A DNA stretch of 38,578 nt from a virus (taxonomy: Duplodnaviria; Heunggongvirae; Uroviricota; Caudoviricetes): IMG/VR virus record IMGVR_UViG_2529292720_000015. One strand, given 5' to 3'. The notes under the pieces are model-generated. The model was not told the DNA's origin, did no database searches, and was given only the letters and a program-made list of their open reading frames with translations. Below, piece by piece: positions 1 to 38,109 of this stretch; position 1 is the stretch's first letter; each line of letters starts with the position of its first letter. The position numbers and the translations under genes were made by a program.

Positions 1-138
1 GAGCGCGGCCGCTTCGCCTGGCCGTCAGCCCGGGATGGCAAAGTGTTCCTCACACCGGCACAGCTGGCGATGCTCCTTGAAGGTATCGACTGGCGGCAGC
101 CTAAAAGACTGCTTACGTCCCTGACTATGTTGTAAGCC
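1..138 (+). CDS. tnpB: IS66-family accessory protein TnpB (C-terminal fragment, 5' end outside window)
   Basis: Frame 1 translates to ...[41 protein letters not shown], which matches the conserved C-terminus of IS66 Orf2/TnpB proteins from memory. It lies 45 bp upstream of the transposase gene. Confidence 0.7.
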
Positions 139-183
139 TCTTTATCCTGGTCGACGCTGAATGAGCCTGGTAATATACCCGGT

Positions 184-1722
184 ATGAGCAGCTCACTTCC
201 TGACGGTATCAATGCGCTGAAACGTCTCCTTGCCGAACAGGAGGCGCTGAACCGTGCCCTGCTGGAAAAGCTGAACGAGCGTGAACGCGAAATAGACCAT
301 CTGCAGGCACAGCTGGATAAGCTGCGCCGGATGAACTTCGGCAGCCGCTCCGAAAAAGTCTCCCGTCGTATCGCACAGATGGAAGCTGACCTGAAGGCAC
401 TTCAGAAAGAAAGTGATACCCTTACCGGTCGGGTTGACGACCCGGCCGTGCAGCGCCCGCTGCGTCAAACCCGCACCCGCAAACCGTTCCCCGAATCACT
501 CCCCCGCGATGAAAAACGGCTGCTGCCGGCAGCGTCATGCTGCCCGGAATGTGGAGGCTCACTGAGCTATCTGGGTGAGGATGCCGCCGAACAGCTGGAG
601 TTGATGCGCAGCGTCTTCCGGGTTATCCGGACTGTACGTGAAAAGCATGCCTGTACTCAGTGCGATGCCATCGTGCAGGCCCCCGCGCCTTCACGGCCCA
701 TCGAGCGGGGTATCGCAGGACCGGGGCTGCTGGCCCGCGTGCTGATCTCAAAGTATGCAGAGCACACCCCGCTGTACCGCCAGTCTGAAATGTACGGCCG
801 CCAGGGCGTGGAGCTGAGTCGTTCACTGCTGTCGGGCTGGGTGGATGCATGCTGCCGGCTACTGTCACCGCTGGAAGAAGCGCTTCAGGACTATGTGCTG
901 ACTGACGGTAAGCTCCATGCTGATGACACGCCTGTCCCGGTGCTGTTGCCAGGCAATAAGAAAACGAAGACCGGGCGGTTATGGACCTACGTTCGTGACG
1001 ACCGTAACGCCGGGTCAACGCTGGCGCCGGCGGTGTGGTTCGCTTACAGCCCGGACAGAAAAGGCATCCATCCGCAGACCCATCTTGCGGGGTTCAGTGG
1101 TGTACTGCAGGCGGATGCATACGCCGGGTTCAACGAGCTGTACCGGGATGGCCGGATAACGGAAGCCGCCTGTTGGGCTCACGCCCGCCGTAAAATCCAC
1201 GATGTGCACGTTCGCACCCCGTCAGCCCTGACGGAGGAAGCGCTGAAACGGATCGGCGAACTGTACGCCATCGAGGCAGAGATAAGGGGAATGACGGCGG
1301 AGCAGCGCCTTGCCGAACGTCAGTTGAAAACGAAACCGCTGCTGAAATCCCTGGAAAGCTGGCTGCGTGAAAAGATGAAAACCCTGTCGCGACACTCAGA
1401 ACTGGCGAAAGCGTTCGCATACGCCCTGAACCAGTGGCCGGCGCTGACGTACTATGCAGATGATGGCTGGGCTGAGGCGGACAATAACATCGCTGAAAAT
1501 GCGTTGCGGATGGTCAGTCTGGGCCGCAAAAACTACCTGTTCTTCGGTTCGGATCATGGAGGAGAGCGGGGAGCGCTGCTGTACAGCCTGATCGGGACGT
1601 GCAAACTGAACGGAGTGGAGCCAGAAAGCTACCTCCGCTATGTCCTTGACGTCATAGCCGACTGGCCGATAAACCGGGTCGGCGAACTGCTCCCCTGGCG
1701 CGTAGCACTGCCGACTGAATAA
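184..1722 (+). CDS. tnpC: IS66-family transposase (TnpC)
   Basis: 512-aa ORF with an N-terminal coiled-coil/leucine-zipper region, a Cys-rich CPECGG...CTQCD zinc-finger-like segment and a long catalytic region, typical of IS66 TnpC. Position after the TnpB-like fragment fits. Confidence 0.9.
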
Positions 1723-1738
1723 CACATCCCCGTCAATA

Positions 1739-1759
1739 CGGTTCTTGCTGCACGCTTAC
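1739..1759 (-). repeat. putative IS66 right terminal inverted repeat
   Basis: Reverse complement reads GTAAGCGTGCAGCAAGAACCG. The TAA inside GTAAGCG supplies the stop codon of the incoming minus-strand baseplate ORF. Confidence 0.5.
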
Positions 1760-3830: not shown

Positions 3831-4001
3831 TTTATTTTTTCTGTTTAAAATTGTCCAACTCAGGTTCTTTAACGCTTTCTGTCATGTAATCCAATCCATC
3901 AAAAGGTACTTCAAGCATTATACTGCTTTCATAATCAGCCATGGATTGCTCTGCTTGCGTTGGCTTACTTTGCTGTGAGTTGTCATTATTTGATGTTGTC
4001 A
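3831..4001 (-). CDS. small acidic hypothetical protein (56 aa), third gene of the tail-module moron
   Basis: ATG at 4001 sits 4 nt after the stop of the upstream membrane-protein gene. Product MTTSNNDNSQQSKPTQAEQSMADYESSIMLEVPFDGLDYMTESVKEPELDNFKQKK. It is below the ORF-track length cutoff and has only a weak SD. Confidence 0.35.
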
Positions 4002-4005
4002 TCAA

Positions 4006-4560
4006 CTATGCCTTATTTATCAAAAGAAAAGTAACCGATAATATGAAAAAACCGAAAGATAACGCAATTCCTTCAAAAAGATAACGAGCATAAACTGCCT
4101 TTTCTTTATGAAGACTTTCGATCAATTCAACAGCTTTACCATACTGAAACATATGGTATCTAAGCGTTTTAATTTTATCACCGTAAAGTAAAAAATCATG
4201 CTCTTCTTTTCGCTTATGAATAGGCATTTTTGGTATATCTTTCAGTCCCCAAGTACGCCATAGGAAAAAAAAGCACATAACAATACAAACAAAGCACAGA
4301 TATGCACAAAGTATAGATAATGTTAAAAACCAATTACTCTTTAGCCCACTTTTGAAATCAACAGTCCCAAATACAGCCAGTAGAGCAGAGGTTTCTACAG
4401 CTAAAATAGCAAGAAGGTAGTTAACTTTGTCCTCAAGACGACGATATGTTGATTTTGCTTCCTCATATCTATCTTTATAATATGACGAAATAAAATCAGC
4501 GCCTATAGTCTCAATTGCCTTTTGTTCTTCTGTTGTATCTATTGGCGAACGCTTGCTCAT
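4006..4560 (-). CDS. hypothetical inner-membrane protein (about 3 TM helices), moron
   Basis: 184-aa ORF in a low-GC segment. It has a hydrophilic N-terminal region of about 45 aa and three hydrophobic helices (LLAILAVETSALLAVFG, WFLTLSILCAYLCFVCIVMCFFFLW, IALSFGFFILSVTFLLI). Its start is 7 nt after the upstream stop. Confidence 0.6.
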   Translation of the reverse strand: MSKRSPIDTTEEQKAIETIGADFISSYYKDRYEEAKSTYRRLEDKVNYLLAILAVETSALLAVFGTVDFKSGLKSNWFLTLSILCAYLCFVCIVMCFFFLWRTWGLKDIPKMPIHKRKEEHDFLLYGDKIKTLRYHMFQYGKAVELIESLHKEKAVYARYLFEGIALSFGFFILSVTFLLINKA

Positions 4561-4567
4561 TTCTTAA

Positions 4568-4915
4568 TCAACCAACAACTTTCTTACACGGGAAAGAGCC
4601 AATAATTTTCGGAGCATCCATGCTGTTCTGCAACAACTGGACGTTCAGGAAACGCGTTTTAGTGCCCGGTCGATGGATATACTCGAACCCATAATTGTTG
4701 CCATCTTTGGCAGGCATCAGCTCCATTTTGATCTGCATGCCTGTACCGTCTTTACCCAACATTTTTACTTTTTGGGATGTTACTGTTTCGCCATTGATTT
4801 TAAATAATGAGTCAGGGATCGCATCCATACGAAAGTTGCCGCATTGCATCGTTATGGTGTTTGCACTTACACCAACAGACACTAACGCCAGCAATGAAAA
4901 TATCCATCGTTTCAT
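4568..4915 (-). CDS. hypothetical secreted/periplasmic protein with signal peptide, moron
   Basis: The ORF track gives 4568..4996. The likely start is the ATG at 4915 (MKRWIFSLLALVSVGVSA-NT..., a signal peptide with an AXA-like cleavage site), preceded by GAGG; the upstream gene's TAG stop lies 2 nt before it. There are two Cys in the mature part. Confidence 0.55.
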   Translation of the reverse strand: MKRWIFSLLALVSVGVSANTITMQCGNFRMDAIPDSLFKINGETVTSQKVKMLGKDGTGMQIKMELMPAKDGNNYGFEYIHRPGTKTRFLNVQLLQNSMDAPKIIGSFPCKKVVG

Positions 4916-20245: not shown

Positions 20246-20770
20246 TTACCGGGACTGTTCTATTTGTCGGACACCAGCCAACTGGTTATTCGCCTTCTCG
20301 ATGGCTGCCAACAGTGGGTTAATCCACAGAACAGCCTGGCAATATGTCAACGTTCTGGTGGTAGTGGCACGATCACCGGCTGAGTCAATGTCCCCGGAAT
20401 CGGCGTGCAATGCGCTGGCACGTAAACGGTTCGCGTAGTTGAGCAACCCGACAGCAATATCAACAGGAACAGGGAAATCACAGTTCTTTTCACGGAGCAG
20501 AACCTCACGGTATTTGATGACTGTCTTCTCGTGACCGATGTCGACCAGAGAATTTAATCGGCTTGCGTTTTCTGCTATCTGGTTAAAACGATTGAAGTTT
20601 AATGCCTGATTAGCTATCACTTTCCCTTGATATTCAGCTTCACCTTCCGCTTTATCAGCCCGCAACTTTTCTGCCTGATACTTGCTGTGGTAATGGTTTG
20701 CAGACCAGACGAGCGCCCCAAAGGCAGAGAAGAAAAATGCCGCGATGACAATCTTATAAGTCAGCTTCAT
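20246..20770 (-). CDS. Rz-like spanin (i-spanin), putative
   Basis: 174-aa ORF with an N-terminal TM helix (KIVIAAFFFSAFGALVW) and a coiled-coil periplasmic part, directly downstream of and overlapping the endolysin gene. Confidence 0.5.
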   Translation of the reverse strand: MKLTYKIVIAAFFFSAFGALVWSANHYHSKYQAEKLRADKAEGEAEYQGKVIANQALNFNRFNQIAENASRLNSLVDIGHEKTVIKYREVLLREKNCDFPVPVDIAVGLLNYANRLRASALHADSGDIDSAGDRATTTRTLTYCQAVLWINPLLAAIEKANNQLAGVRQIEQSR

Positions 20771-21230
20771 TTACCACCCCACCAGCATCTTTAAAACTGG
20801 AAATCAGGTCACCGATTTTATGTTCATACTGACCGTAACCTGCACCAGGTAACGACGCCCAGATATTGCTGCAACGGTCGATTGCCTGACGAATATCGCC
20901 ACGGTCAATCATCGGTAAAGCGCCACGCTCTTTAATCTGCTGCAGCGCCACAGCGTCCTGACTTTCTGGCGAAAAATCTTTCAGGCCAAGCTGCTTGCGG
21001 TAGGCATCCCACCAGCGTGAAAGAAGTTGATACCGGCCTGCAGCTGTTGATTTAAGCTTCGGGTTTAGCGTGACAAGTTTGCGAGGGTGATCGGAGTAAT
21101 CAGTGAACAACTCACCTCCGACGATAACGTCATAACCGTGATTACGTGTCGGTTGTCGCCCGTTATCCGTTCCTTCTGACCAGGCCACCATATCCAGGAA
21201 AGCTTTACGCTGGGGATTTAGTTCCTGCAT
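20754..21230 (-). CDS. R: endolysin, lambda R-like lytic transglycosylase
   Basis: 158-aa product MQELNPQRKAFLDMVAWSEGTDNGRQPTRNHGYDVIVGGELFTDYSDHPRKLVTLNPKLKS... is near-identical over most of its length to phage lambda R as I remember it. Confidence 0.85.
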   Translation of the reverse strand: MQELNPQRKAFLDMVAWSEGTDNGRQPTRNHGYDVIVGGELFTDYSDHPRKLVTLNPKLKSTAAGRYQLLSRWWDAYRKQLGLKDFSPESQDAVALQQIKERGALPMIDRGDIRQAIDRCSNIWASLPGAGYGQYEHKIGDLISSFKDAGGVVNEADL

Positions 21231-21233
21231 AAA

Positions 21234-21593
21234 TTACTCCTTCGAGCTACCAAATTTGTTACCGATTACTCGCATTGCAGCCCCACGAATAGCATCGACA
21301 CCGATCAGCCCAACGCCGCCACCAATGGCAACAGAAAGCGATTTAGGCCATCCAACATACTCAAGAGCGGATGCAAAGGTCAGCGTCAGAGCACCACAGA
21401 GCAAAATCTCAAGCGTTTTTCGTTTCCAGCCGCCGCCACCGCCAAAATAGGCAATGCGCAACCCAGCCATAACAATTGACATAACCACTGCGCCCAACGG
21501 CGTATCTCCACGCCACCAACTTTGTAAGAGTTCCAGTAAGTCAGGCCAGGAATGAGGAGCATTGTGCATTTTCATACTTCCCCCCTCCGCCAT
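21234..21593 (-). CDS. holin, putative
   Basis: 119-aa ORF immediately upstream of the endolysin, with hydrophobic helices and a charged C-terminus. A possible dual start (M...MKM) is present. Confidence 0.55.
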   Translation of the reverse strand: MAEGGSMKMHNAPHSWPDLLELLQSWWRGDTPLGAVVMSIVMAGLRIAYFGGGGGWKRKTLEILLCGALTLTFASALEYVGWPKSLSVAIGGGVGLIGVDAIRGAAMRVIGNKFGSSKE

Positions 21594-25627: not shown

Positions 25628-26251
25628 ATGTCTCTCGCAGCCCGTTTTAAAGCACGTCGTTTGGAATTAGGAATGACTCAAGTGGAAGTAGCGAATTCTG
25701 CAGGGGTTAGCCAACAATCCATAGAATCCATCGAAAGTGGACGAACCAGAAAGCCGCGCAATCTTCTGGATCTGGCTAAGGCCTTGAAATGTAGCCCAGA
25801 CTGGCTACTGAACGGTAAAAATATTATGCCTCTCGCGGAGATAAGTACCAGACGCATACCTATATTAAGTTACGTTCAGGCAGGAGAGCTTACAGAAGCA
25901 AGAGACATAACAGATCTGACAGGGGAATTTGAATATATTTTGGCAGACTCTGACATTCCAGAAACATGCTTCGCATTACGTATTGATGGCGACAGCATGC
26001 AACCAGAGTTTAAAGAAGGAGACATTGTTATCATCGATCCTGATCTATGTCCTGCACCAGGGGAGTTTGTTGTCGCCAAAAACGACGGTCACGAAGCTAC
26101 ATTTAAAAAATACCGTCCATTAGGAATCGGCATCGACGACTTTGAATTAATCCCCCTAAATCCTGATTACCCTATTTTTCGTAGTGCAGATATGAACTTA
26201 CAGATCATAGGTGTAATGATCGAACACCGTATTTACCGCCGTAAACGTTAG
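25628..26251 (+). CDS. CI/LexA-like repressor with S24 peptidase domain
   Basis: The ORF track starts at 25577, but the likely start is the Met at MSLAARFKARR (25628), preceded by GAAGGA. The product has an N-terminal HTH (TQVEVANSAGVSQQSIESIESG) and a C-terminal S24 autopeptidase-like domain with Ser (DGDSM) and Lys (KKY) motifs. Confidence 0.8.
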   Translation: MSLAARFKARRLELGMTQVEVANSAGVSQQSIESIESGRTRKPRNLLDLAKALKCSPDWLLNGKNIMPLAEISTRRIPILSYVQAGELTEARDITDLTGEFEYILADSDIPETCFALRIDGDSMQPEFKEGDIVIIDPDLCPAPGEFVVAKNDGHEATFKKYRPLGIGIDDFELIPLNPDYPIFRSADMNLQIIGVMIEHRIYRRKR

Positions 26252-26270
26252 TATTCCCACCGTAAATATC

Positions 26271-26296
26271 GGGAGGCGTAACAGCCTCCCTTACCC
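26271..26296 (+). terminator. possible terminator after the CI-like gene
   Basis: GGGAGGC-GTAACA-GCCTCCC hairpin followed by a weak, interrupted T-tract (TTaccccaTTT). Confidence 0.3.
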
Positions 26297-26573
26297 CATT
26301 TGTAAAGTCTTACAAATTAAATTCACTTAAATATCAATAAAGTAGTATTCACACCCCACAAAATACCACATTTGTGGTTTACACAATACAACTCAAATTG
26401 TATCTTTAGCCACAAGTCGAACGGCGCGACTCTAAACCATGCGTCGGGACCGTGGCGGGACAGGATGTCGGCAATACGGGTCAGTAAGTTCCCTTTGGGG
26501 TGCGGCGAAGCACTGTCTACTGATACAAGTCGAAGCCGCCGAACCACCAAAGTGAACTGAATGAGGAAACGGC

Positions 26574-26768
26574 GTGAAAACGTATAAACCGCTCAAAGGT
26601 GAATGCCCTGCTTGCCAAACACAGCTTCAGACACCAAAGCCAAAACGATACCAAATCAACGAATGTTATGAGCACTGCCCTGGATGTGGTGCTTTCCTGC
26701 ATACCATTGCAACGCACTGGCGTGTCCGCTTCAACCTTGTGGTACCACGTACGCACAATACCAACTGA
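26574..26768 (+). CDS. small zinc-ribbon protein, hypothetical
   Basis: 64-aa ORF with a GTG start preceded by GAGGAA. It carries CPAC ... CPGC, a four-Cys zinc-ribbon-like arrangement. Confidence 0.4.
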   Translation: MKTYKPLKGECPACQTQLQTPKPKRYQINECYEHCPGCGAFLHTIATHWRVRFNLVVPRTHNTN

Positions 26769-26884
26769 ATCATCCATGTAATTGCTGTGTGTAGTCTTTG
26801 CCCGCCGCAAGTGACGGGCTTTTTTATGTCTGAAAGCGCACTCGCAACAGCGCGCTCCCCGATATGAAAAAAGGAATACAACCG

Positions 26885-29252: not shown

Positions 29253-29696
29253 ATGAAACTGAAGCTGAACAATGTTCGTCTGGCCTTCCCGTCTCTGTTT
29301 GAAGCTAAAACTGTAAACGGCGAAGGCGATCCACGTTTCTCCGCAGTATTTTTAATGTCACCCAAACACCCACAACTGGAAGAAATCCGTAAAGCTATGA
29401 AGCAGGTAGCGAAGGAAAAATGGGGAGAGAAGTGGGAGCCCATTTATAACCAACTGGAGAAAAAACTCAATCTGTGCCTGCATGATGGTGATGAAAAAGC
29501 AGAGTATGAAGGCTTCCCCGGCAATTTCTTCCTGAATGCTGCTAACAAAGCGCGCCCAGCTGTTCTTGATCGCGATCGTTCGCCACTTATTCAGGCTGAT
29601 GGACGTCCCTATGCAGGGTGCTATGTAAACGCCGTTATCGATATCTGGGCACAGGACAATAATTTCGGTAAACGCATTAATGCCTCACTCGGCTGA
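29253..29696 (+). CDS. DUF2815-family protein (SSB-like), apparently C-terminally truncated by an in-frame TGA
   Basis: The N-terminus MKLKLNNVRLAFPSLFEAK is typical of DUF2815. After the TGA at 29694-29696 the frame continues for 34 codons (VQFLRDGDAFAVGGVASADDFDDISEGADAEALI) to a TAA at 29799. Confidence 0.75.
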   Translation: MKLKLNNVRLAFPSLFEAKTVNGEGDPRFSAVFLMSPKHPQLEEIRKAMKQVAKEKWGEKWEPIYNQLEKKLNLCLHDGDEKAEYEGFPGNFFLNAANKARPAVLDRDRSPLIQADGRPYAGCYVNAVIDIWAQDNNFGKRINASLG

Positions 29697-29853
29697 GTCC
29701 AGTTCCTGCGAGACGGCGATGCATTCGCTGTCGGCGGAGTGGCAAGCGCTGACGATTTCGACGATATCAGCGAAGGTGCTGATGCTGAAGCACTGATTTA
29801 ACCCTACTTCATAGACGCCCGGTTAAATACCGGGCTGCTGATTAGGCGCATAA

Positions 29854-30483
29854 TCACTCAGGAATCTTAATCTTCCTCAATTCTTTATTTAGTTCACAGA
29901 TCTTCTTCTTAGACGGGAAAGTATCATACATCCAAAAACCAACAGTCTCTAAAACTATTGTCATAACCATATACACAAGATAATTTAAAAGGCCTTCATT
30001 TTGCCCTATGGAAATAATGCAGATAATAGAAAAAAGGATAAACAGCACAAAACACAGAAAGGAAAACAGACGACTAATAATAAATAAAAAACCTGAAAAA
30101 TTAACATTGATGAAAAACACTCCGTTATCTTTCTCTATATAATTCTGAAGCTTAATCACCTGATTTATATACTGTCTTTTTTCTAATCTATTGCAAATGT
30201 AAATAACATCACTTCGGTTATAAGAAGATTGCAATTTCAGCGCATCACGAATAATTTTATCATTTATTCTTTTTTCTATGGCACTCTTATCCTCCTTATC
30301 CAGATAACGTTCATACTTAACTAAATATAAAATTAACTTCTTGACATATTTAGGCTCTTTATACTTATAATTAAAAATGATCTTTCTTATCCAGACTCCC
30401 ATAACAATCAAACATGAAAAAATATATCCAGCTATTTTCTCCAGATGCTCTGTATGGTCAATCAAGTATTGGATCATATGCAT
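29854..30483 (-). CDS. hypothetical membrane protein (about 3 TM helices), AT-rich accessory gene
   Basis: 209-aa ORF, very low GC, on the strand opposite the flanking replication genes. It has hydrophobic helices at roughly residues 17-33, 134-158 and 169-190, with a Lys/Glu-rich soluble region between. Confidence 0.6.
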   Translation of the reverse strand: MHMIQYLIDHTEHLEKIAGYIFSCLIVMGVWIRKIIFNYKYKEPKYVKKLILYLVKYERYLDKEDKSAIEKRINDKIIRDALKLQSSYNRSDVIYICNRLEKRQYINQVIKLQNYIEKDNGVFFINVNFSGFLFIISRLFSFLCFVLFILFSIICIISIGQNEGLLNYLVYMVMTIVLETVGFWMYDTFPSKKKICELNKELRKIKIPE

Positions 30484-30529
30484 AATTAATCTTTTAATCA
30501 GTTAATAGAATAAAAACCAAGGTAAACAC

Positions 30530-32593
30530 ATGTCCAATATACTATGGGGCGACCTGGAAACCTATTGCGAAATCCCTATTACGAACGGTACCCATGCGTA
30601 TGCCGAAGGCGTTGAAGTGATGCTGTTCGCATGGGCTATCAACGACGGGCCAGTAAACGTATGGGATATCACTGCCGGTGGTGGTATTCCACACGGCTTA
30701 TACGAAGCAATCGCAGCCCCTGAAACCCTGCTTTATTTTCATAACTCTCACTTCGACCGCACCGTCCTGCGTTATGCAATGCCGCGACTGGCACCGCCAG
30801 TCGAACGTTGGCGCGACACGATGGTGCAGGCGCTGGCGCACGGTCTCCCGGGGTCTCTGGGGGAACTCTGCGAAGTACTAGGCGTCCCGCAAGACAAAGC
30901 GAAGGACAAAGAAGGTAAAGCGCTGATCCAGCTGTTCTGTAAGCCACGCCCGAAAAACAGCAAACTGCGCCGGGCCACCAGCAAAACCCACACGGAAGAA
31001 TGGCGGCGCTTTGTTGCTTACGCCGGACTGGATATCGAGGCAATGCGCGAAGTCTATAAACGTCTGCCGAAGTGGAATTATCAGGGGACAGAACTGGCGC
31101 TCTGGCATCGTGATCAGCAGATCAATGACCGGGGCGTCTGCATGGACGTGGAACTCGCACGCGCTGCGATCGACGCGGTAGACCAGGAACAAAAGCGCCT
31201 GGCAAAGCGTACACAGGAAATGACTGATGGCGAAGTGCAGGCAGCCACACAACGAGACGCGTTGATTAAGCACATTGTTGAATCCTACGGTGTGGAGCTA
31301 CCAGACATGCAACGCAGTACTCTGGAACGTCGTATTGCCGACCCCGATTTACCATCTGCCGTGAAAGAACTGCTGGCTATCCGCCTGCAGGCCAGTACTA
31401 CCAGCACCAGTAAATACAAGGCACTGATGAAAGGCGTAAGCCACGACGGGCGCTTACGCGGTACGCTACAGTTCTGCGGGGCGTCACGTACCGGTCGTTG
31501 GGCCGGACGGCTATTCCAGCCCCAGAACCTTCCCCGCCCTTCACTAAAACAGGAACAAATAGACGAAGGCATCGAAGCACTGAAAGCCGGATGTGCAGAC
31601 CTGCTGTTTGACAATATCATGGAACTAACCAGTTCAGCGTTACGTGGCTGCATTATCGCGCCAACAGGCAAAAAGCTGGTGGTAAGTGACTTGTCGAACA
31701 TTGAAGGCCGTATGCTGGCATGGCTGGCGGGAGAAGAATGGAAACTGAATGCATTCAGAGAGTACGACGCCGGAACGGGTCCGGACTTATATAAACTGGC
31801 GTATGCAAAAGCTTTCGATATTGCACCAGATGATGTTGATAAACACATGCGTCAGATCGGTAAAGTCATGGAACTCGGTCTGGGTTATGGAGGAGGTGTA
31901 TCGGCTTTCATCACTTTTGCTCTGGTTTACGGTCTCGATCTCGACGGGCTGGCGAACGCCGCACTGCCAAACATTCCCCGCGATGTTATCCGCGAGGCGA
32001 AAAGCTGGTACGACGAATCGGTTAAACGTAAATCGACCTACGGGCTTTCTGAACGGGTATTTATCGCCTGCGACTCACTTAAACGTCTCTGGCGCCGGGC
32101 GCATCCCGCGACCTGTGATTTCTGGTACGAACTGGAGTGCACCGTCCGCACAGCAATCGCCACACCGCAAAAAACATTGTATTGCGGTTATCTTAAAATC
32201 CGCCGCGATGGCGCGTGGCTGCGCATACAGCTACCATCCGGACGCGCTGTATGCTACCCGTCTCCGGTTATCGAACAAGGGAATATCACCTACATGGGTG
32301 TTAACTCTTATTCGCGTAAATGGCAACGACTCAAAACCTACGGCGGAAAGCTGGTGGAGAACGTCACCCAGGCGGCCGCCCGCGACGTTCTGGCCGGAAA
32401 CATGCCGCTTATCGAAGATGCCGGTTACAGCATTGTGCTGACGGTACACGACGAGGTGATCACCGAATCACCTGACACAGAAGATTTCAACGATAAAGCG
32501 CTTTCCGCGCTTCTCTCCACTAACCCCGAATGGGCGCCAGATATCCCACTGAACGCTGGCGGTTTTGAGGCGTACCACTACCGTAAGGATTAA
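30530..32593 (+). CDS. DNA polymerase, family A, with N-terminal 3'-5' exonuclease domain
   Basis: 687-aa ORF with an N-terminal DxE exonuclease motif (WGDLETY). The C-terminal region contains HDE (TVHDEVITE), consistent with the polymerase motif C region. Typical partner of DUF2800/DUF2815. Confidence 0.85.
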
Positions 32594-33373: not shown

Positions 33374-33943
33374 TTAGTCAATGCCTTTTTGATTGAACTT
33401 CTGATTCTCCAGTATGCTTTGCAGCTCAATATTATCATTTGCAGCGGTTTGTTTATGCTCATGATATTTTTCTTGCGTATAATTTCTTTCTCTTAGTTTC
33501 TGTGCGTAATTATTAGAAATAATATCATGACGATCTTGTAATACTTGTTCAAGTTGACTTTTAAAGTCCTCTATCTTTTCATTAGAAATAACATTTTTGT
33601 ACTTTTCAATATCACGGCGAAGTTCTTTTTCTTTCTTCTTATTAATGCTTAATAACTGTCGATTAACGCTACCTAAGGACCATTTAAACCCAATCGACTT
33701 TATCCAATGCGCCAGAAACATAGCGCAACTGGGAAGCATTAATAAAAGAAATGGCTTTATTGTATTTAAATCAGAACCAATATACGGAAAACAACCGTCC
33801 CACGAGGACACCAGTAATGTTAAAAAACCAGTGATGCCACCAGCAGCAACATTAGAAATCAGAGGGACTTTTTCGTAGCTATCAAGTTTAGAAGCGCTAC
33901 TCAAACGTCCCTCCTTTGACTGATCTTCCAGCACGAATGGCAT
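33374..33943 (-). CDS. hypothetical membrane protein (2 TM helices plus C-terminal coiled-coil), accessory cassette gene 3
   Basis: AT-rich ORF. The ATG at 33943 has no SD, whereas an alternative TTG at 33904 is preceded by AAGGAGG at 5-nt spacing and lies 2 nt after the upstream stop, giving about 176 aa. TM helices are GGITGFLTLLVSSW and FLLLMLPSCAMFLAHWI, followed by a Lys/Glu/Gln-rich predicted coiled coil. Confidence 0.6.
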   Translation of the reverse strand: MPFVLEDQSKEGRLSSASKLDSYEKVPLISNVAAGGITGFLTLLVSSWDGCFPYIGSDLNTIKPFLLLMLPSCAMFLAHWIKSIGFKWSLGSVNRQLLSINKKKEKELRRDIEKYKNVISNEKIEDFKSQLEQVLQDRHDIISNNYAQKLRERNYTQEKYHEHKQTAANDNIELQSILENQKFNQKGID

Positions 33944-34145
33944 TCATTGCAATTTTGTAAAATTCATCATCAGAAGAGACATCAACGACATCGCGACGGA
34001 CAACTCCTTCTGAGTCAACACATTCAAGAACAAGATGATGTTTAGGCATAAGCGCAAAGCGTAACCGGTCAAACCCCATCTTAAGAACCCAATATAGTAC
34101 GGGAAGCAGGCTAAAAAAAGCCAGCCAAAAAGCAAAAGCAATCAT
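33897..34145 (-). CDS. hypothetical small single-TM protein, accessory cassette gene 2
   Basis: 82-aa ORF with GGAGG 5 nt upstream of the ATG. N-terminal TM helix (IAFAFWLAFFSLLPVLYWVL) and an acidic soluble C-terminal part. Confidence 0.6.
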   Translation of the reverse strand: MIAFAFWLAFFSLLPVLYWVLKMGFDRLRFALMPKHHLVLECVDSEGVVRRDVVDVSSDDEFYKIAMNAIRAGRSVKGGTFE

Positions 34146-34168
34146 AGCCCCCTCCCCATGTGAATCTA

Positions 34169-35047
34169 CTATAAGATGCCGTGTACTTTAACAACTATGT
34201 ACGTTTTGTCCAGCGAATTCAAGTTCTCACGGACGAGCAAATAAACGCAGTAAGCATCACTAAAAACACCAGGTTCTCTTCCCGTACTAACACGTTGTAA
34301 GAACTCAGTATCTTCTATAGACACGCTGATTGTGTCATCGCCATAGTTGACTCGCCAGCCTGTGTTTTTATCCTTATGAATAGTCAAAAATGTGATTAGA
34401 GCCTCTTCAATCACCCTTTCAGACAAGGACTGCACTACAGGAACGCGCCTATATCTGAACGGTTCAATATTATCTTCGTGCACCTTAATCAGCTCAACCC
34501 CCTGTTGAGTTGAAATTTTAAGCGATTCGTATCCTTCCTTTTGCAAAGGATTATGAATTAACTTCGATAAGGATTTGCGTATGCTTGGTGAGGCAAGTAA
34601 AGGCCGGAAATATGACGGGGCTATAATTTCCTCACCATCATCCATAACTATTTTACAGTCTCCTTCCGCTGTTAAAGTCAACCGTTTTATTTGCCTACCA
34701 TTGATCTGACGAATTAAGTCAATGAGAGTATTTCCTGCTGCGAGTGCAGTTGTACCTCCAAGCCCAATAATGCTTAATATATTCAAATGGTCAAGTGGAT
34801 TTTGAATAACATCAATCAAATACTCAAATGAGCCTTCCTTAAAAGGCTCAACCTCAACATTAATACACTCACTAGTGCCATTGACAACCAAATTAACTTC
34901 TTTAAGCAAGTTGTTTAGTCCATTCAATGACTCAGTTAAAACATCCAAATCTATTTTATGATCTGCTAGTGCGGGACCATCATATTTAACAACTAATTTA
35001 TCAGTAATATTTTCTTCTTGCTGGACATCTGTATAAGCTGAGGTCAT
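34169..35047 (-). CDS. hypothetical soluble protein (292 aa), accessory cassette gene 1
   Basis: AT-rich ORF with AAGGAA 5 nt upstream of the ATG, on the strand opposite the replication genes. No Walker A, HEPN, PD-(D/E)XK or other catalytic motif was recognised. Confidence 0.65.
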   Translation of the reverse strand: MTSAYTDVQQEENITDKLVVKYDGPALADHKIDLDVLTESLNGLNNLLKEVNLVVNGTSECINVEVEPFKEGSFEYLIDVIQNPLDHLNILSIIGLGGTTALAAGNTLIDLIRQINGRQIKRLTLTAEGDCKIVMDDGEEIIAPSYFRPLLASPSIRKSLSKLIHNPLQKEGYESLKISTQQGVELIKVHEDNIEPFRYRRVPVVQSLSERVIEEALITFLTIHKDKNTGWRVNYGDDTISVSIEDTEFLQRVSTGREPGVFSDAYCVYLLVRENLNSLDKTYIVVKVHGIL

Positions 35048-36512: not shown

Positions 36513-36709
36513 GCGAGAAACCCGACGATTTACTCACCCCGGATGAAGTATGCCAAAAGTTAGGTATTACACAGAAAACGCTATGTGAGTGGAATATTAA
36601 GCATCGTCATCGGGCTATCCTGGCACCAATTCGTTTCAGTGCAAAAGTAGTTCGTTATGAGCGCCGCAATGTCGACGCTTTTATTCAAAAGTGTCGCAGC
36701 CGGTATTAA
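36509..36709 (+). CDS. AlpA/Xis-like DNA-binding protein (putative excisionase or regulator)
   Basis: 66-aa ORF whose motif LLTPDEVCQKLGITQKTLCEW is typical of AlpA-family HTH proteins. It sits next to, and convergent with, the integrase gene, with an ATGA overlap to the helicase gene. Confidence 0.55.
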   Translation: MSEKPDDLLTPDEVCQKLGITQKTLCEWNIKHRHRAILAPIRFSAKVVRYERRNVDAFIQKCRSRY

Positions 36710-38109
36710 CCTCGCCGCCGTAGCAATGCCACCTGCGCAAGTATGCTCCGCTCGTGAGCCTCGAAAGCTTCGCGCTTTAACGCAATCTCTTCCTGCAAAA
36801 TCTCATCAGAAAAGTCGTAATGTTCTGCCATCGGGTCATCTGACTTGCTGGAGTGGTGAAGGCAAAGGAGGCTGATTTCCCTTCGGTCTGATCGGGAATA
36901 GCCTCTTTCCTTCATCAAGGCAATAACATTGCTCTTAAGGAATTTACGGCACATCGTATTAAATGCACCGTCTTTCCCTTTAACAGTCCCATCATGTTTT
37001 ATTCCTTTTACAGCCCCATCCGGGCTGTATGTTTTCACTAGCTTATCCAGTGATCGTTTTGAAAATGGCTGCATTGGATCACGCGGCTGCAAAAATACAT
37101 AATCCCTGTTGCACTCAGGAACTGAATCACGCCATGCTTTCTGCTCGTCGATAATCCGCCGGATCTCCGGCGTTATTGGCAGGCGGAAAGCCTTTTGTGT
37201 TTTCATAGCCCCTCGCATGCCGATAACCCCTTCAGGATAAACAATTTCGCCAGTCTCCTCGTGAACGTAGTCCCAGCGCAGGTTATGGACATTAATCGGA
37301 CGAACGCCGGTGATGATCATGAAGCGAACAGCATTCTTCTGGTGTACAGAGGTGCAGGCGGCAACATTGAGCCAGAGCCGGGCGATTGACTCAATATCGG
37401 TAAAAAGCCGTGTGGGGGTGGGTTTCTGTACGCGGGAGGAAACATAATCATCTGGCAGACTGGCAGCAACATTGCGACCGTTACAAAGAGTAGGTGCGCA
37501 GAACTTCCAGAACCGACGGAGCTCGGCAAACAACTCCAGGGCGTTATTGTTCGAGCGAGTGGCGATCCACTCGTCCAGCACTTCCACCAGCCGATTGTAT
37601 GTTACGTCGCTGAACACCTCACGCTCGCCGAACGTTGCTTTAATCCGGTCGATACGCACCCCGTAGGTTGTGAAACTGTCCGGGCTCAGCTTCTGCCGGG
37701 CGACTTTGGCTTTGAGGTCATCCCGGTACATTTCCAGCGCTGCATGTACGGACTCTGCCCGCAAGCCACCGTCAGCCATACCTAGCGCTTTTTCGCGCGC
37801 CAGCTGGATAGCGAGCTCCGGCCACTCGCCGAGCTTTTTACCCTTGAGGCCCATCTTTTTTGGAAACTCGGCGTAAAATGTAACCTTACCGGCTTTGCTG
37901 AAATCGATACGGAGATAGTTCTCTTTTTCGTATTTGGAACGGCGAGCCACGCCGGAAGCAGCGAGGATGATTTTGGCGGCAGCAACACAGATTTTCATGT
38001 GTGCGCTGGTATAGGGGGGTTTACAGGCGTCCCATTTTTCAGATGCGGCTAAAACATCGTCATTATTGGGGCTATCCGGATTATGTGTTACAGTGCGCGG
38101 CATTCTCAA
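36706..38109 (-). CDS. int: tyrosine-type integrase
   Basis: 467-aa ORF. The C-terminal domain carries recombinase boxes (ITGVRPINVHNLRWDYV with the conserved Arg, and LLCLHHSSKSDDPMAEHYDF with the His...Tyr). It lies at the prophage edge next to a chromosomal gene; the N-terminal start is uncertain. Confidence 0.7.
   Translation of the reverse strand: MRMPRTVTHNPDSPNNDDVLAASEKWDACKPPYTSAHMKICVAAAKIILAASGVARRSKYEKENYLRIDFSKAGKVTFYAEFPKKMGLKGKKLGEWPELAIQLAREKALGMADGGLRAESVHAALEMYRDDLKAKVARQKLSPDSFTTYGVRIDRIKATFGEREVFSDVTYNRLVEVLDEWIATRSNNNALELFAELRRFWKFCAPTLCNGRNVAASLPDDYVSSRVQKPTPTRLFTDIESIARLWLNVAACTSVHQKNAVRFMIITGVRPINVHNLRWDYVHEETGEIVYPEGVIGMRGAMKTQKAFRLPITPEIRRIIDEQKAWRDSVPECNRDYVFLQPRDPMQPFSKRSLDKLVKTYSPDGAVKGIKHDGTVKGKDGAFNTMCRKFLKSNVIALMKERGYSRSDRREISLLCLHHSSKSDDPMAEHYDFSDEILQEEIALKREAFEAHERSILAQVALLRRRG

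What the first reader, a model, noticed from the sequence alone, without database searches (positions are those of the whole stretch)
29854..30483. Single very AT-rich membrane-protein gene inserted antisense between DUF2815 and the DNA polymerase
A 209-aa ORF with about three TM helices and a Lys-rich soluble region sits on the opposite strand between two genes that are normally adjacent in this module type. Its GC is far below its neighbours, suggesting horizontally acquired cargo. Single membrane proteins in such positions are often superinfection-exclusion or abortive-infection factors. The insertion also separates the polymerase from any upstream promoter, so the polymerase needs its own promoter inside or near the cargo gene.
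Basis: partly seen in the sequence, partly recalled or inferred. Interest (0 to 1): 0.6.

Follow-up and report, generated by a model that had tools for sequence, protein, structure and literature searches.

The report
Swappable membrane-protein gene in prophage hotspot
A real, AT-rich gene for a three-pass inner-membrane protein of unknown function sits backwards in a highly variable cargo slot of an E. coli prophage's replication genes; it is most likely an untested anti-phage protein, and a published machine-learning screen has already predicted this.

Summary
ORF 29854-30483 (-) encodes a 209-aa protein at 29.5% GC, against 47-54% in its neighbours. It has three transmembrane helices and a basic cytoplasmic domain of about 90 aa.

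The window is an E. coli prophage, near-identical to one in strain ETEC-2264. The gap between the DUF2815 single-strand-binding gene and the polymerase gene is a cargo hotspot. Of 76 related viral contigs, 12 have an empty 74-80 bp gap and the rest show about 18 different fillings. These include a SIR2 protein (candidate defence PDC-S25), DUF4145, an SPFH lipoprotein, Nmad5, BRO-N and a homing endonuclease.

The protein belongs to a tiny uncharacterised family (PHROG 10579) with no Pfam, NCBIfam, PADLOC or structural match. Relatives sit alone in other accessory positions. Two further, very divergent lineages of the family (17-23% identity) occupy this same slot.

Its closest analogue in architecture and population pattern is P22 SieA, but sequence homology was tested and not found. 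DefensePredictor (Science 2026, Table S10) lists this exact protein as a predicted, untested defence gene.

The defence reading is plausible but unproven. The claim that the polymerase needs its own promoter could not be tested. Verdict: a new member of a known kind, of moderate interest.

The parts
29854..30483 (-). Cargo gene. It encodes a 209-aa inner-membrane protein with three TM helices, predicted N-out/C-in. It has a cytoplasmic basic helical domain of about 90 aa and a conserved cytoplasmic C-terminal helix. It is identical to WP_000551021.1 and falls in PHROG 10579.
29802..30529 (.). The 728-bp variable slot between the DUF2815 stop codon and the polymerase start codon (GC 0.306). Homology between slot variants ends at the DUF2815 stop or just after the hairpin, and resumes exactly at the polymerase ATG.
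29817..29835 (.). GC-rich hairpin GCCCGGT-TAAAT-ACCGGGC, just downstream of both convergent genes. It has no U tract on either strand. It is shared with the BRO-N and SIR2 slot variants. Other variants, including the empty slot, have a different hairpin at the same place. It is therefore a backbone feature and a possible attenuator or terminator.
30484..30529 (.). 46-bp AT-rich divergent intergenic region (GC 0.22). It holds the polymerase ribosome-binding site (AAGG) and the 5' leader of the cargo gene. This stretch differs in every slot variant, so each cassette brings its own polymerase RBS.
30507..30536 (-). The only promoter-like match positioned to drive the cargo gene: TGGACA, 18 nt, TATTCT (9 of 12). 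Its -35 element overlaps the first polymerase codons. It is a weak, chance-level match and is unverified.
29253..29801 (+). Left flank: the DUF2815 (Enc34-type ssDNA-binding protein) gene. In this window it is interrupted by a GGA->TGA change at 29694-29696.
30530..32593 (+). Right flank: the family-A DNA polymerase gene (687 aa).

Best explanation
The gene is a self-contained accessory ('moron') cassette lodged in a recombination hotspot of the prophage's replication operon. I infer that it is expressed from the repressed prophage and makes a three-pass inner-membrane protein that protects the lysogen against other phages.

The mechanism I commit to is a single-protein sensor-effector. The conserved cytoplasmic domain (residues ~38-125) and the invariant C-terminal helix (I195, N199, L202, K204) detect a phage product or event at the inner face of the membrane. 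The TM2-TM3 hairpin carries a conserved membrane-embedded Glu (E179) and then oligomerises to permeabilise or depolarise the membrane. That would be abortive-infection-like.

Shown: the gene, its composition, its predicted topology, its family, the hotspot and the cassette swapping. Inferred: expression in lysogens, anti-phage function and the mechanism. I put any anti-phage function (this explanation plus the entry-block rival) at about 0.55, and this particular mechanism at about 0.3.
For: The slot is hypervariable between near-identical flanks. In 5,426 complete E. coli genomes, 159 carry the module and 67 carry this gene. In 76 viral contigs, 12 slots are empty, 9 hold this gene and there are about 18 other states.

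Alternative cargo includes a SIR2 protein matching PADLOC candidate system PDC-S25 (E 4e-158) and ThsA-like profiles, plus DUF4145, SPFH, BRO-N, Nmad5 and a homing endonuclease.

Family members sit alone in accessory positions elsewhere:
- a P2-like prophage, between the tail genes S and V;
- directly upstream of antiterminator Q, next to GAPS4-type PD-(D/E)XK, methylase/HNH and HD genes;
- antisense between RecT and a PAPS reductase gene in a phage early region;
- an ICE- or plasmid-like contig;
- near an integrase.

Three lineages of the family with 17-23% identity occupy the same slot. P22 SieA shows the same pattern (PMC10883804).

The topology is conserved, with almost all conserved residues on the cytoplasmic side. 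Periplasmic exposure is only about 16 plus 4-8 residues.

DefensePredictor gives this exact accession a mean log-odds of 6.1 and the 199-aa slot-mate 5.9. The paper's strict cutoff is 4, and 45% of the units it cloned were validated.

A second AT-rich antisense cassette 3 kb downstream matches PADLOC candidate PDC-S42.
Against: There is no experimental evidence of any kind. The gene is not among the cloned or validated units in the DefensePredictor tables held here.

No match was found to PADLOC, Pfam, NCBIfam or PDB sequences. Fold searches gave only generic helical bundles.

DefensePredictor uses genomic context, so it is not fully independent of the hotspot argument. Its minimum score for this protein is 2.9.

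No convincing promoter or intrinsic terminator for the gene was found. Xenorhabdus homologues sit at a conserved chromosomal site next to thrS, with no defence neighbours. Nothing here distinguishes pore formation from an entry block.
Confidence: 0.3

Rival explanations
1. Superinfection exclusion of the SieA type. The protein sits in the inner membrane and blocks the passage of incoming phage DNA, for example by interfering with the phage's ejection or tape-measure conduit or with a host inner-membrane entry factor. The cell is not killed.
For: Its architecture closely resembles P22 SieA. Both run TM1, basic loop, TM2-TM3 hairpin, then a short conserved cytoplasmic tail. Neither has a signal peptide. 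Both are antisense single genes next to essential phage genes. Both families have three sequence types below 30% identity at one locus. Many other occupants of the slot are also small membrane proteins on the - strand.
Against: No sequence homology to SieA was found. Pfam PF26849 was not hit. Profile-profile probability was 0.2%, the same as a reversed-sequence control. The family has very little periplasmic exposure and an extra cytoplasmic domain of about 45 aa. No phenotype data exist.
Confidence: 0.25
2. A non-defence accessory gene. It would be a membrane protein that changes host physiology or the prophage's own life cycle (lysis timing, lysogeny maintenance, stress tolerance), or selfish cargo with no benefit.
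For: Most hotspot cargo is of unknown function, and the slot also carries BRO-N, Nmad5 and a homing endonuclease. Xenorhabdus homologues are fixed at one chromosomal site beside thrS in several species. Only 45% of the units DefensePredictor cloned were validated.
Against: pN/pS of 0.24-0.38 and deep conservation of architecture argue against junk. The phage already has a lambda-family holin, endolysin and Rz. The holin PHROG match is not significant (E 0.066). The extreme divergence of slot-mates on near-identical backbones fits an arms race better than housekeeping.
Confidence: 0.25
3. A replication accessory protein that tethers the phage replication complex (SSB, polymerase) to the membrane, as phi29 p16.7 does, and co-evolves with the polymerase module. 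The phi29 comparison is from my own knowledge.
For: The gene lies between the SSB and polymerase genes. Family members fill this slot in 20 of 76 relatives, always with the 5' end 26-46 bp from the polymerase start. The cytoplasmic domain is basic.
Against: Twelve relatives have an empty slot and 44 carry unrelated cargo, on flanks that are 91-99% identical. The gene is on the opposite strand with foreign composition. Homologues lie in tail modules, beside Q, in a chromosome and on an ICE-like element, with no polymerase nearby. There is no fold match to DNA-binding domains.
Confidence: 0.05

Closest known systems
P22 SieA superinfection-exclusion protein (Pfam PF26849; Leavitt et al. 2024, PMC10883804)
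   Same: Both are prophage-encoded single genes lying antisense beside essential phage genes. Both are inner-membrane proteins with three predicted TM helices and no signal peptide, arranged as TM1, basic loop, TM2-TM3, then a short conserved cytoplasmic C-terminal motif. In both families several sequence types below 30% identity occupy the same locus.
   Different: No detectable sequence or profile similarity. This protein is about 45 aa longer in the cytoplasmic loop. It sits in a replication module instead of next to the ejection-protein genes. The host phage has contractile-tail-type genes, unlike the P22-like podoviruses. The function is untested.
Phage 'morons' and accessory or defence hotspots (lambdoid morons; P2/P4 hotspots, Rousset et al. 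2022; PMC13586616)
   Same: Conserved core genes flank a slot with rapidly swapped, compositionally foreign cargo. Near-identical backbones carry different cargo. Candidate defence genes are among the alternatives.
   Different: This hotspot lies inside the early replication operon of a different prophage family (DUF2800-DUF2815-PolA-VRR-NUC-SNF2). I found no description of it in the papers searched. Empty slots are common here (12 of 76), whereas the P2/P4 study reports that they are very rare.
Membrane-acting abortive-infection effectors (lambda RexB; 2-TM/4-TM effectors of CBASS, retrons and others) - compared from my own knowledge
   Same: A small TM hairpin joined to a cytoplasmic module, encoded on mobile elements. 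A conserved charged residue inside a TM helix is compatible with channel formation.
   Different: It is a single gene with no partner sensor or signalling enzyme. It matches no PADLOC model. Pore formation is purely inferred.
DefensePredictor 'predicted novel defense gene' clusters (DeWeirdt, Mahoney & Laub 2026, PMC13092281, Table S10)
   Same: The identical accession WP_000551021.1 is listed with mean log-odds 6.1. The 199-aa slot-mate cluster WP_096845875.1 is listed with 5.9.
   Different: This is a prediction only. Neither protein appears in the tables of cloned or validated systems. The paper does not link the two clusters as homologues and does not describe the slot.

Membership tests
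P22 SieA family (Pfam PF26849) | Sequence or profile similarity to SieA | tested here: not met
   The Pfam scan at E<=1 gave no PF26849 hit. hhalign of the family profile against P22 SieA, and against a 10-sequence SieA profile, gave probability 0.2%. That score equals the one for a reversed-sequence control.
P22 SieA family (Pfam PF26849) | Inner-membrane protein with three TM helices and a conserved cytoplasmic C-terminal motif | tested here: met
   Prediction only: hydropathy, the positive-inside rule across the family and the AF2 model.
P22 SieA family (Pfam PF26849) | Blocks DNA injection by superinfecting phage | not testable with these tools
   Needs infection assays.
Phage moron (accessory cassette) | Present in some and absent from other closely related phage genomes | tested here: met
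   67 of 159 E. coli genomes that carry the module. 9 of 76 viral contigs, with 12 empty slots.
Phage moron (accessory cassette) | Nucleotide composition different from the neighbours | tested here: met
   GC 0.295 against 0.47-0.54.
Phage moron (accessory cassette) | Own promoter and terminator | tested here: inconclusive
   There is one weak - strand promoter-like match at 30536-30507, at chance level. The downstream hairpin 29817-29835 has no U tract and belongs to the backbone.
Phage moron (accessory cassette) | Expressed from the repressed prophage | not testable with these tools
   Needs RNA-seq or 5'-end mapping of a lysogen.
Defence hotspot of a mobile element | Conserved flanking core genes with many alternative cargos | tested here: met
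   About 18 slot-length classes between DUF2815 and the polymerase at 91-99% flank identity.
Defence hotspot of a mobile element | Known defence systems among the alternative cargos | tested here: inconclusive
   The SIR2 cargo matches the PADLOC candidate PDC-S25 and ThsA-like profiles, and a DUF4145 protein is present. No experimentally validated system was identified in the slot.
Known or candidate defence proteins (PADLOC-DB v2.0.0) | Match to any model | tested here: not met
   0 families at E<=1 for this protein. The 199-aa and 223-aa homologues also gave none.
Holins | Significant match to a holin family and a position in the lysis cassette | tested here: not met
   phrog_2508 scored E 0.066 over 40 residues only. 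The phage's holin, endolysin and Rz genes lie at about 20246-21575.
PHROG 10579 (unknown function) | Profile match | tested here: met
   E 2e-109 over residues 28-209, covering the whole 182-position profile.

The most novel reading that the evidence does not exclude
The 209-aa protein and its two very divergent slot-mates (199/208 aa and 223 aa) represent a previously uncharacterised family of single-gene, inner-membrane anti-phage proteins. The family resembles SieA in architecture but is unrelated in sequence, senses or blocks infection from the cytoplasmic face of the membrane, and has diversified in place in a replication-module hotspot. The hotspot itself would be a new place to look for defence genes.
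Probability: 0.45. Interest if true: 0.6.

Novelty: new member of a known kind. Interest (0 to 1): 0.42.

Why it matters
If the protein does protect lysogens, it adds a small family with no known domains to the short list of single-gene membrane defences, few of whose mechanisms are understood (SieA, Imm, RexB-like effectors).

The slot between the SSB and polymerase genes would also become a compact hotspot with well-defined edges, about 18 cargo types on near-identical backbones. It could be mined for further defence or counter-defence genes.

Three lineages at 17-23% identity on 97-99% identical flanks offer a natural experiment on how specificity evolves.

If the protein shows no phenotype, this is simply one more prophage moron of unknown function.

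Tried and rejected
Searches that found nothing useful:
- Pfam, NCBIfam, PADLOC and PDB-sequence scans of the protein gave nothing significant.
- The single-sequence AF2 model was too poor to use (pLDDT 56).
- Foldseek against the PDB and BFVD found nothing at E<0.001. The AlphaFold database library was not available.
- The model showed a helix-helix-helix-beta-hairpin pattern at residues 63-125 and I wondered about a winged-helix domain. No fold hit supported this, so I dropped it.
- Back-translated pattern scans failed for the family alignment. The single-protein scan found nothing in one genome per species.
- The family is absent from PLSDB plasmids. Among GenBank phages it appears only in three induced E. 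coli phages.
- Rfam and tRNA scans of the window found nothing.

Ideas tested and rejected:
- By eye, the SieA C-terminal motif (FNKEF) and loop (YLKEKFSPE) resemble this family's (LNKEL, YL.KY..YLS.EDK). Profile-profile tests scored no better than a reversed control, so I rejected homology.
- A holin role and a replication-tether role were rejected on context (see the rival explanations).

Inconclusive or negative:
- Sigma-70 and terminator scans of this and three variant loci were all at chance level and cannot settle the promoter question.
- Literature searches for the accession, the phage names and the DUF2800/DUF2815 module found no description of the gene or the slot.

Full report
**What is there.**
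The finding's coordinates are exact. A 209-codon ATG-started ORF runs from 30483 down to 29854 on the - strand. RefSeq annotates the same ORF in the near-identical strain ETEC-2264 as WP_000551021.1, 'hypothetical protein'.

Its GC content is 0.295 (GC3 0.333). DUF2815 is 0.471, the polymerase 0.542 and the whole window 0.504. At this composition about 8% of random codons are stops, so an open frame this long has a chance probability of roughly 3e-8 (my estimate). pN/pS between natural alleles is 0.24-0.38, so the gene is a real coding sequence under selection.

**The host element.**
The window is an E. coli prophage. Outside its first 1,759 bases it matches ETEC-2264 (NZ_CP023349.1) except at nine positions.

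Annotation of that record shows:
- an integrase at 36706-38103 next to the host gene yfhL;
- a LexA-like repressor at 25628-26251;
- cro-like, VapE, Q, lysis and contractile-tail-type structural genes on the - strand;
- on the + strand, a replication operon of DUF2800 nuclease, DUF2815 (Enc34-type SSB), family-A polymerase, ANR, DUF4406, VRR-NUC and SNF2 helicase genes.

Three induced E. coli phages in GenBank carry the gene at 96.7% identity. This shows that prophages of this type carrying the gene can be recovered as phage.

**The protein.**
Hydropathy and the positive-inside rule give this layout:
- a short acidic N-terminus outside the cytoplasm;
- TM1 at about 17-37;
- a basic cytoplasmic region at about 38-125 (20 Lys/Arg against 12 Asp/Glu);
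- a TM2-TM3 hairpin at about 131-188, joined by a 4-8 residue loop;
- a Lys-rich cytoplasmic tail.

Across 11 non-redundant family members the net charges are -1.5 (N-tail), +6.9 (loop 1), -0.3 (loop 2) and +2.5 (C-tail). The topology is therefore conserved, and the C-tail is the best-conserved region.

An AlphaFold2 model built on a 15-sequence alignment reached pLDDT 76.7 and pTM 0.59. It shows helices throughout, plus a beta-hairpin at 116-125.

Notable conserved positions are:
- a Glu inside TM3 (E179), present in most members;
- an Arg/Lys at the cytoplasmic start of TM2 (R138);
- I195, N199, L202 and K204 in the terminal helix.

**Homology.**
No Pfam, NCBIfam, PADLOC or PDB-sequence match exists. 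The only library hit is PHROG 10579, of unknown function.

A word-indexed search of 5.8 billion proteins found only E. coli copies above 75% identity. A full HMMER pass over 1.84 billion cluster representatives found ten proteins. Eight of them were distant relatives at 25-43% identity, nearly all about 210 aa with the same layout. A profile search added Xenorhabdus proteins.

Fold searches returned only generic helical bundles. This is a very small, uncharacterised family.

**The slot is a hotspot.**
Among 5,426 complete E. coli genomes, 159 carry the flanking module and 67 of those carry this gene. The rest have other cargo. Examples:
- a BRO-N protein;
- a 199-aa - strand protein;
- Nmad5 plus an 89-aa or a 229-aa - strand protein;
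- a 500-aa SIR2 protein.

I then took 80 IMG/VR contigs whose DUF2815 is at least 91% identical and measured the gap to the polymerase in the 76 that hold both genes. The result:
- 12 have an empty gap of 74-80 bp;
- 9 have this 728-bp cassette;
- the rest fall into about 18 further length classes.

Scans of the other cargos show that the SIR2 protein matches PADLOC candidate PDC-S25 at E 4e-158 and ThsA-like profiles. They also identify a DUF4145 protein, an SPFH/Band-7 lipoprotein, a NUMOD4/HNH homing endonuclease and several small membrane proteins.

Flanks that are 97-99% identical carry entirely different cargo. Homology between variants stops at the DUF2815 stop codon or just after a hairpin. 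It resumes exactly at the polymerase ATG, so each cassette supplies its own polymerase ribosome-binding site.

**An unexpected point.**
The 199/208-aa and 223-aa - strand occupants of the same slot are remote homologues of the 209-aa protein. Against the family profile, hhalign gave probabilities of 96.8% and 97.1%, with E-values of 2e-10 and 6e-11. The alignments cover nearly the full length for the 199-aa protein and residues 52-207 for the 223-aa protein, at 17-23% identity. A 166-aa occupant is unrelated.

Family members fill 20 of the 76 slots. They are always on the - strand, with the 5' end 26-46 bp from the polymerase start.

**Contexts elsewhere.**
Relatives occur as lone genes in these places:
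- a Rahnella P2-like prophage, between tail genes S and V. A recent survey reports a P2 defence hotspot within the tail genes;
- immediately upstream of antiterminator Q, beside GAPS4-type PD-(D/E)XK, methylase/HNH and HD genes;
- antisense between RecT and a PAPS-reductase gene in a phage early region;
- an ICE- or plasmid-like contig with TraG;
- beside an integrase;
- at the edge of a mobile region in Xenorhabdus hominickii;
- a fixed chromosomal site next to thrS in several Xenorhabdus species.

The gene therefore works alone and travels alone.

**Comparison with known systems.**
The best analogue is P22 SieA. It is 162-164 aa with three predicted TM helices, sits in the inner membrane and has no signal peptide. 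It is an antisense single gene with a conserved cytoplasmic C-terminal motif. Three sequence types below 30% identity sit at one locus (sequence).

I tested homology directly:
- the Pfam SieA model PF26849 was not hit;
- hhalign of the family against SieA gave probability 0.2%;
- hhalign against a 10-sequence SieA profile also gave 0.2%;
- the score equals that of a reversed-sequence control.

So this protein may work like SieA, but it is not a demonstrable member of that family.

**Prior knowledge.**
DefensePredictor (DeWeirdt, Mahoney and Laub, Science 2026, PMC13092281) lists WP_000551021.1 in Table S10 as a 'predicted novel defense gene'. Its mean log-odds is 6.1 (range 2.9-9.5), with no HHblits or Foldseek hit to known defence proteins. 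The 199-aa slot-mate cluster scores 5.9.

The paper's strict cutoff is 4, and 45% of the transcription units it cloned gave protection. Neither accession, nor any 209-aa or 199-aa entry, appears in the tables of cloned or validated systems. The defence idea is therefore already published as a prediction and is still untested.

**The polymerase-promoter claim.**
No + strand sigma-70 consensus lies in or near the cargo. All promoter scans here and in three variant loci are at chance level.

More importantly, the empty slot already contains a GC-rich hairpin followed by TTTT between DUF2815 and the polymerase. Every variant has a hairpin at that position. The SIR2 variant has a strong terminator-like palindrome just before the polymerase.

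Whatever lets the polymerase be transcribed is thus a property of the backbone and not a consequence of this insertion. The question needs 5'-end mapping.

**Verdict.**
The 'horizontally acquired cargo' reading is well supported. The defence reading is the most likely one at about 0.55. I split it between a gated membrane effector (my pick, because nearly everything conserved faces the cytoplasm) and a SieA-like entry block. It remains unproven.

The finding is a new, uncharacterised member of a well-known kind of feature: a prophage moron in an accessory or defence hotspot. The hotspot and the in-place diversification of the family are the most useful new points.

Noticed in passing
window 29694-29696: The DUF2815 (SSB-like) gene has an in-frame TGA (GGA->TGA) that removes the last 35 residues, including the acidic DDF tail. 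H10407 and ETEC-2264 have the intact 182-aa gene. It may be a real inactivating mutation or a sequencing error.
   Followed up: partly
window 5676, 9079, 9113, 16807, 21462, 21583, 29694, 30992, 34243: All nine differences from ETEC-2264 after position 1759 are G:C<->T:A transversions. That bias is typical of oxidative damage or a sequencing artefact. Against H10407, the three differences inside DUF2815 are all T in the window where H10407 has G.
   Followed up: partly
window 33374-35047 (- strand): A second AT-rich antisense cassette (GC 0.36-0.39) lies between VRR-NUC and the SNF2 helicase gene. The 292-aa protein matches PADLOC candidate PDC-S42 (E 1e-39) and NCBIfam LAPAL_fam (E 8e-56, described by NCBI as a putative phage structural protein). 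It is followed by an 82-aa and a 189-aa hydrophobic protein. Relatives carry a methyltransferase, DUF6338 or other genes at this position.
   Followed up: partly
L005 10348-11109; L018 3105-3866: Some relatives carry a TIR-domain gene directly after the polymerase. In L005 it accompanies a SIR2 gene placed before the polymerase. In phage vB_EcoM-689R2 it accompanies the 209-aa membrane gene. So there is a third cargo slot, and possibly a Thoeris-like SIR2/TIR pair split around the polymerase.
   Followed up: no
L087 5550-5629; L104 5550-5623: The 74-80 bp empty slot can fold in two mutually exclusive ways. One is the hairpin CACCCGGC/GCCGGGTG followed by TTTT. The other is a longer hairpin, GGGTGTTTTGCAAAG...CTTTTCGCAAAGCACCC. 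This looks like an attenuator between the SSB and polymerase genes.
   Followed up: partly
window 26252-26884: About 630 bp between the repressor gene and the first replication-operon gene has no annotated gene. H10407 has a 525-bp - strand hypothetical gene in this region and other relatives differ, so this is another variable position.
   Followed up: no
window 3832-4915: A low-GC stretch (about 0.39) lies inside the baseplate/tail module and holds three small hypothetical genes. It may be another accessory insertion.
   Followed up: no
window 1-1759: This end of the window (GC about 0.60, one 512-aa + strand ORF) is unrelated to the tail-protein genes found at the same place in ETEC-2264. 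The window's source therefore differs from that strain at the tail-fibre end of the prophage.
   Followed up: no
L001 6831-8905: In E. coli H10407 the polymerase next to the same cargo gene is annotated as frameshifted, and the SNF2 gene has an internal stop. That copy of the prophage is decaying while the 209-aa gene remains intact and identical.
   Followed up: no
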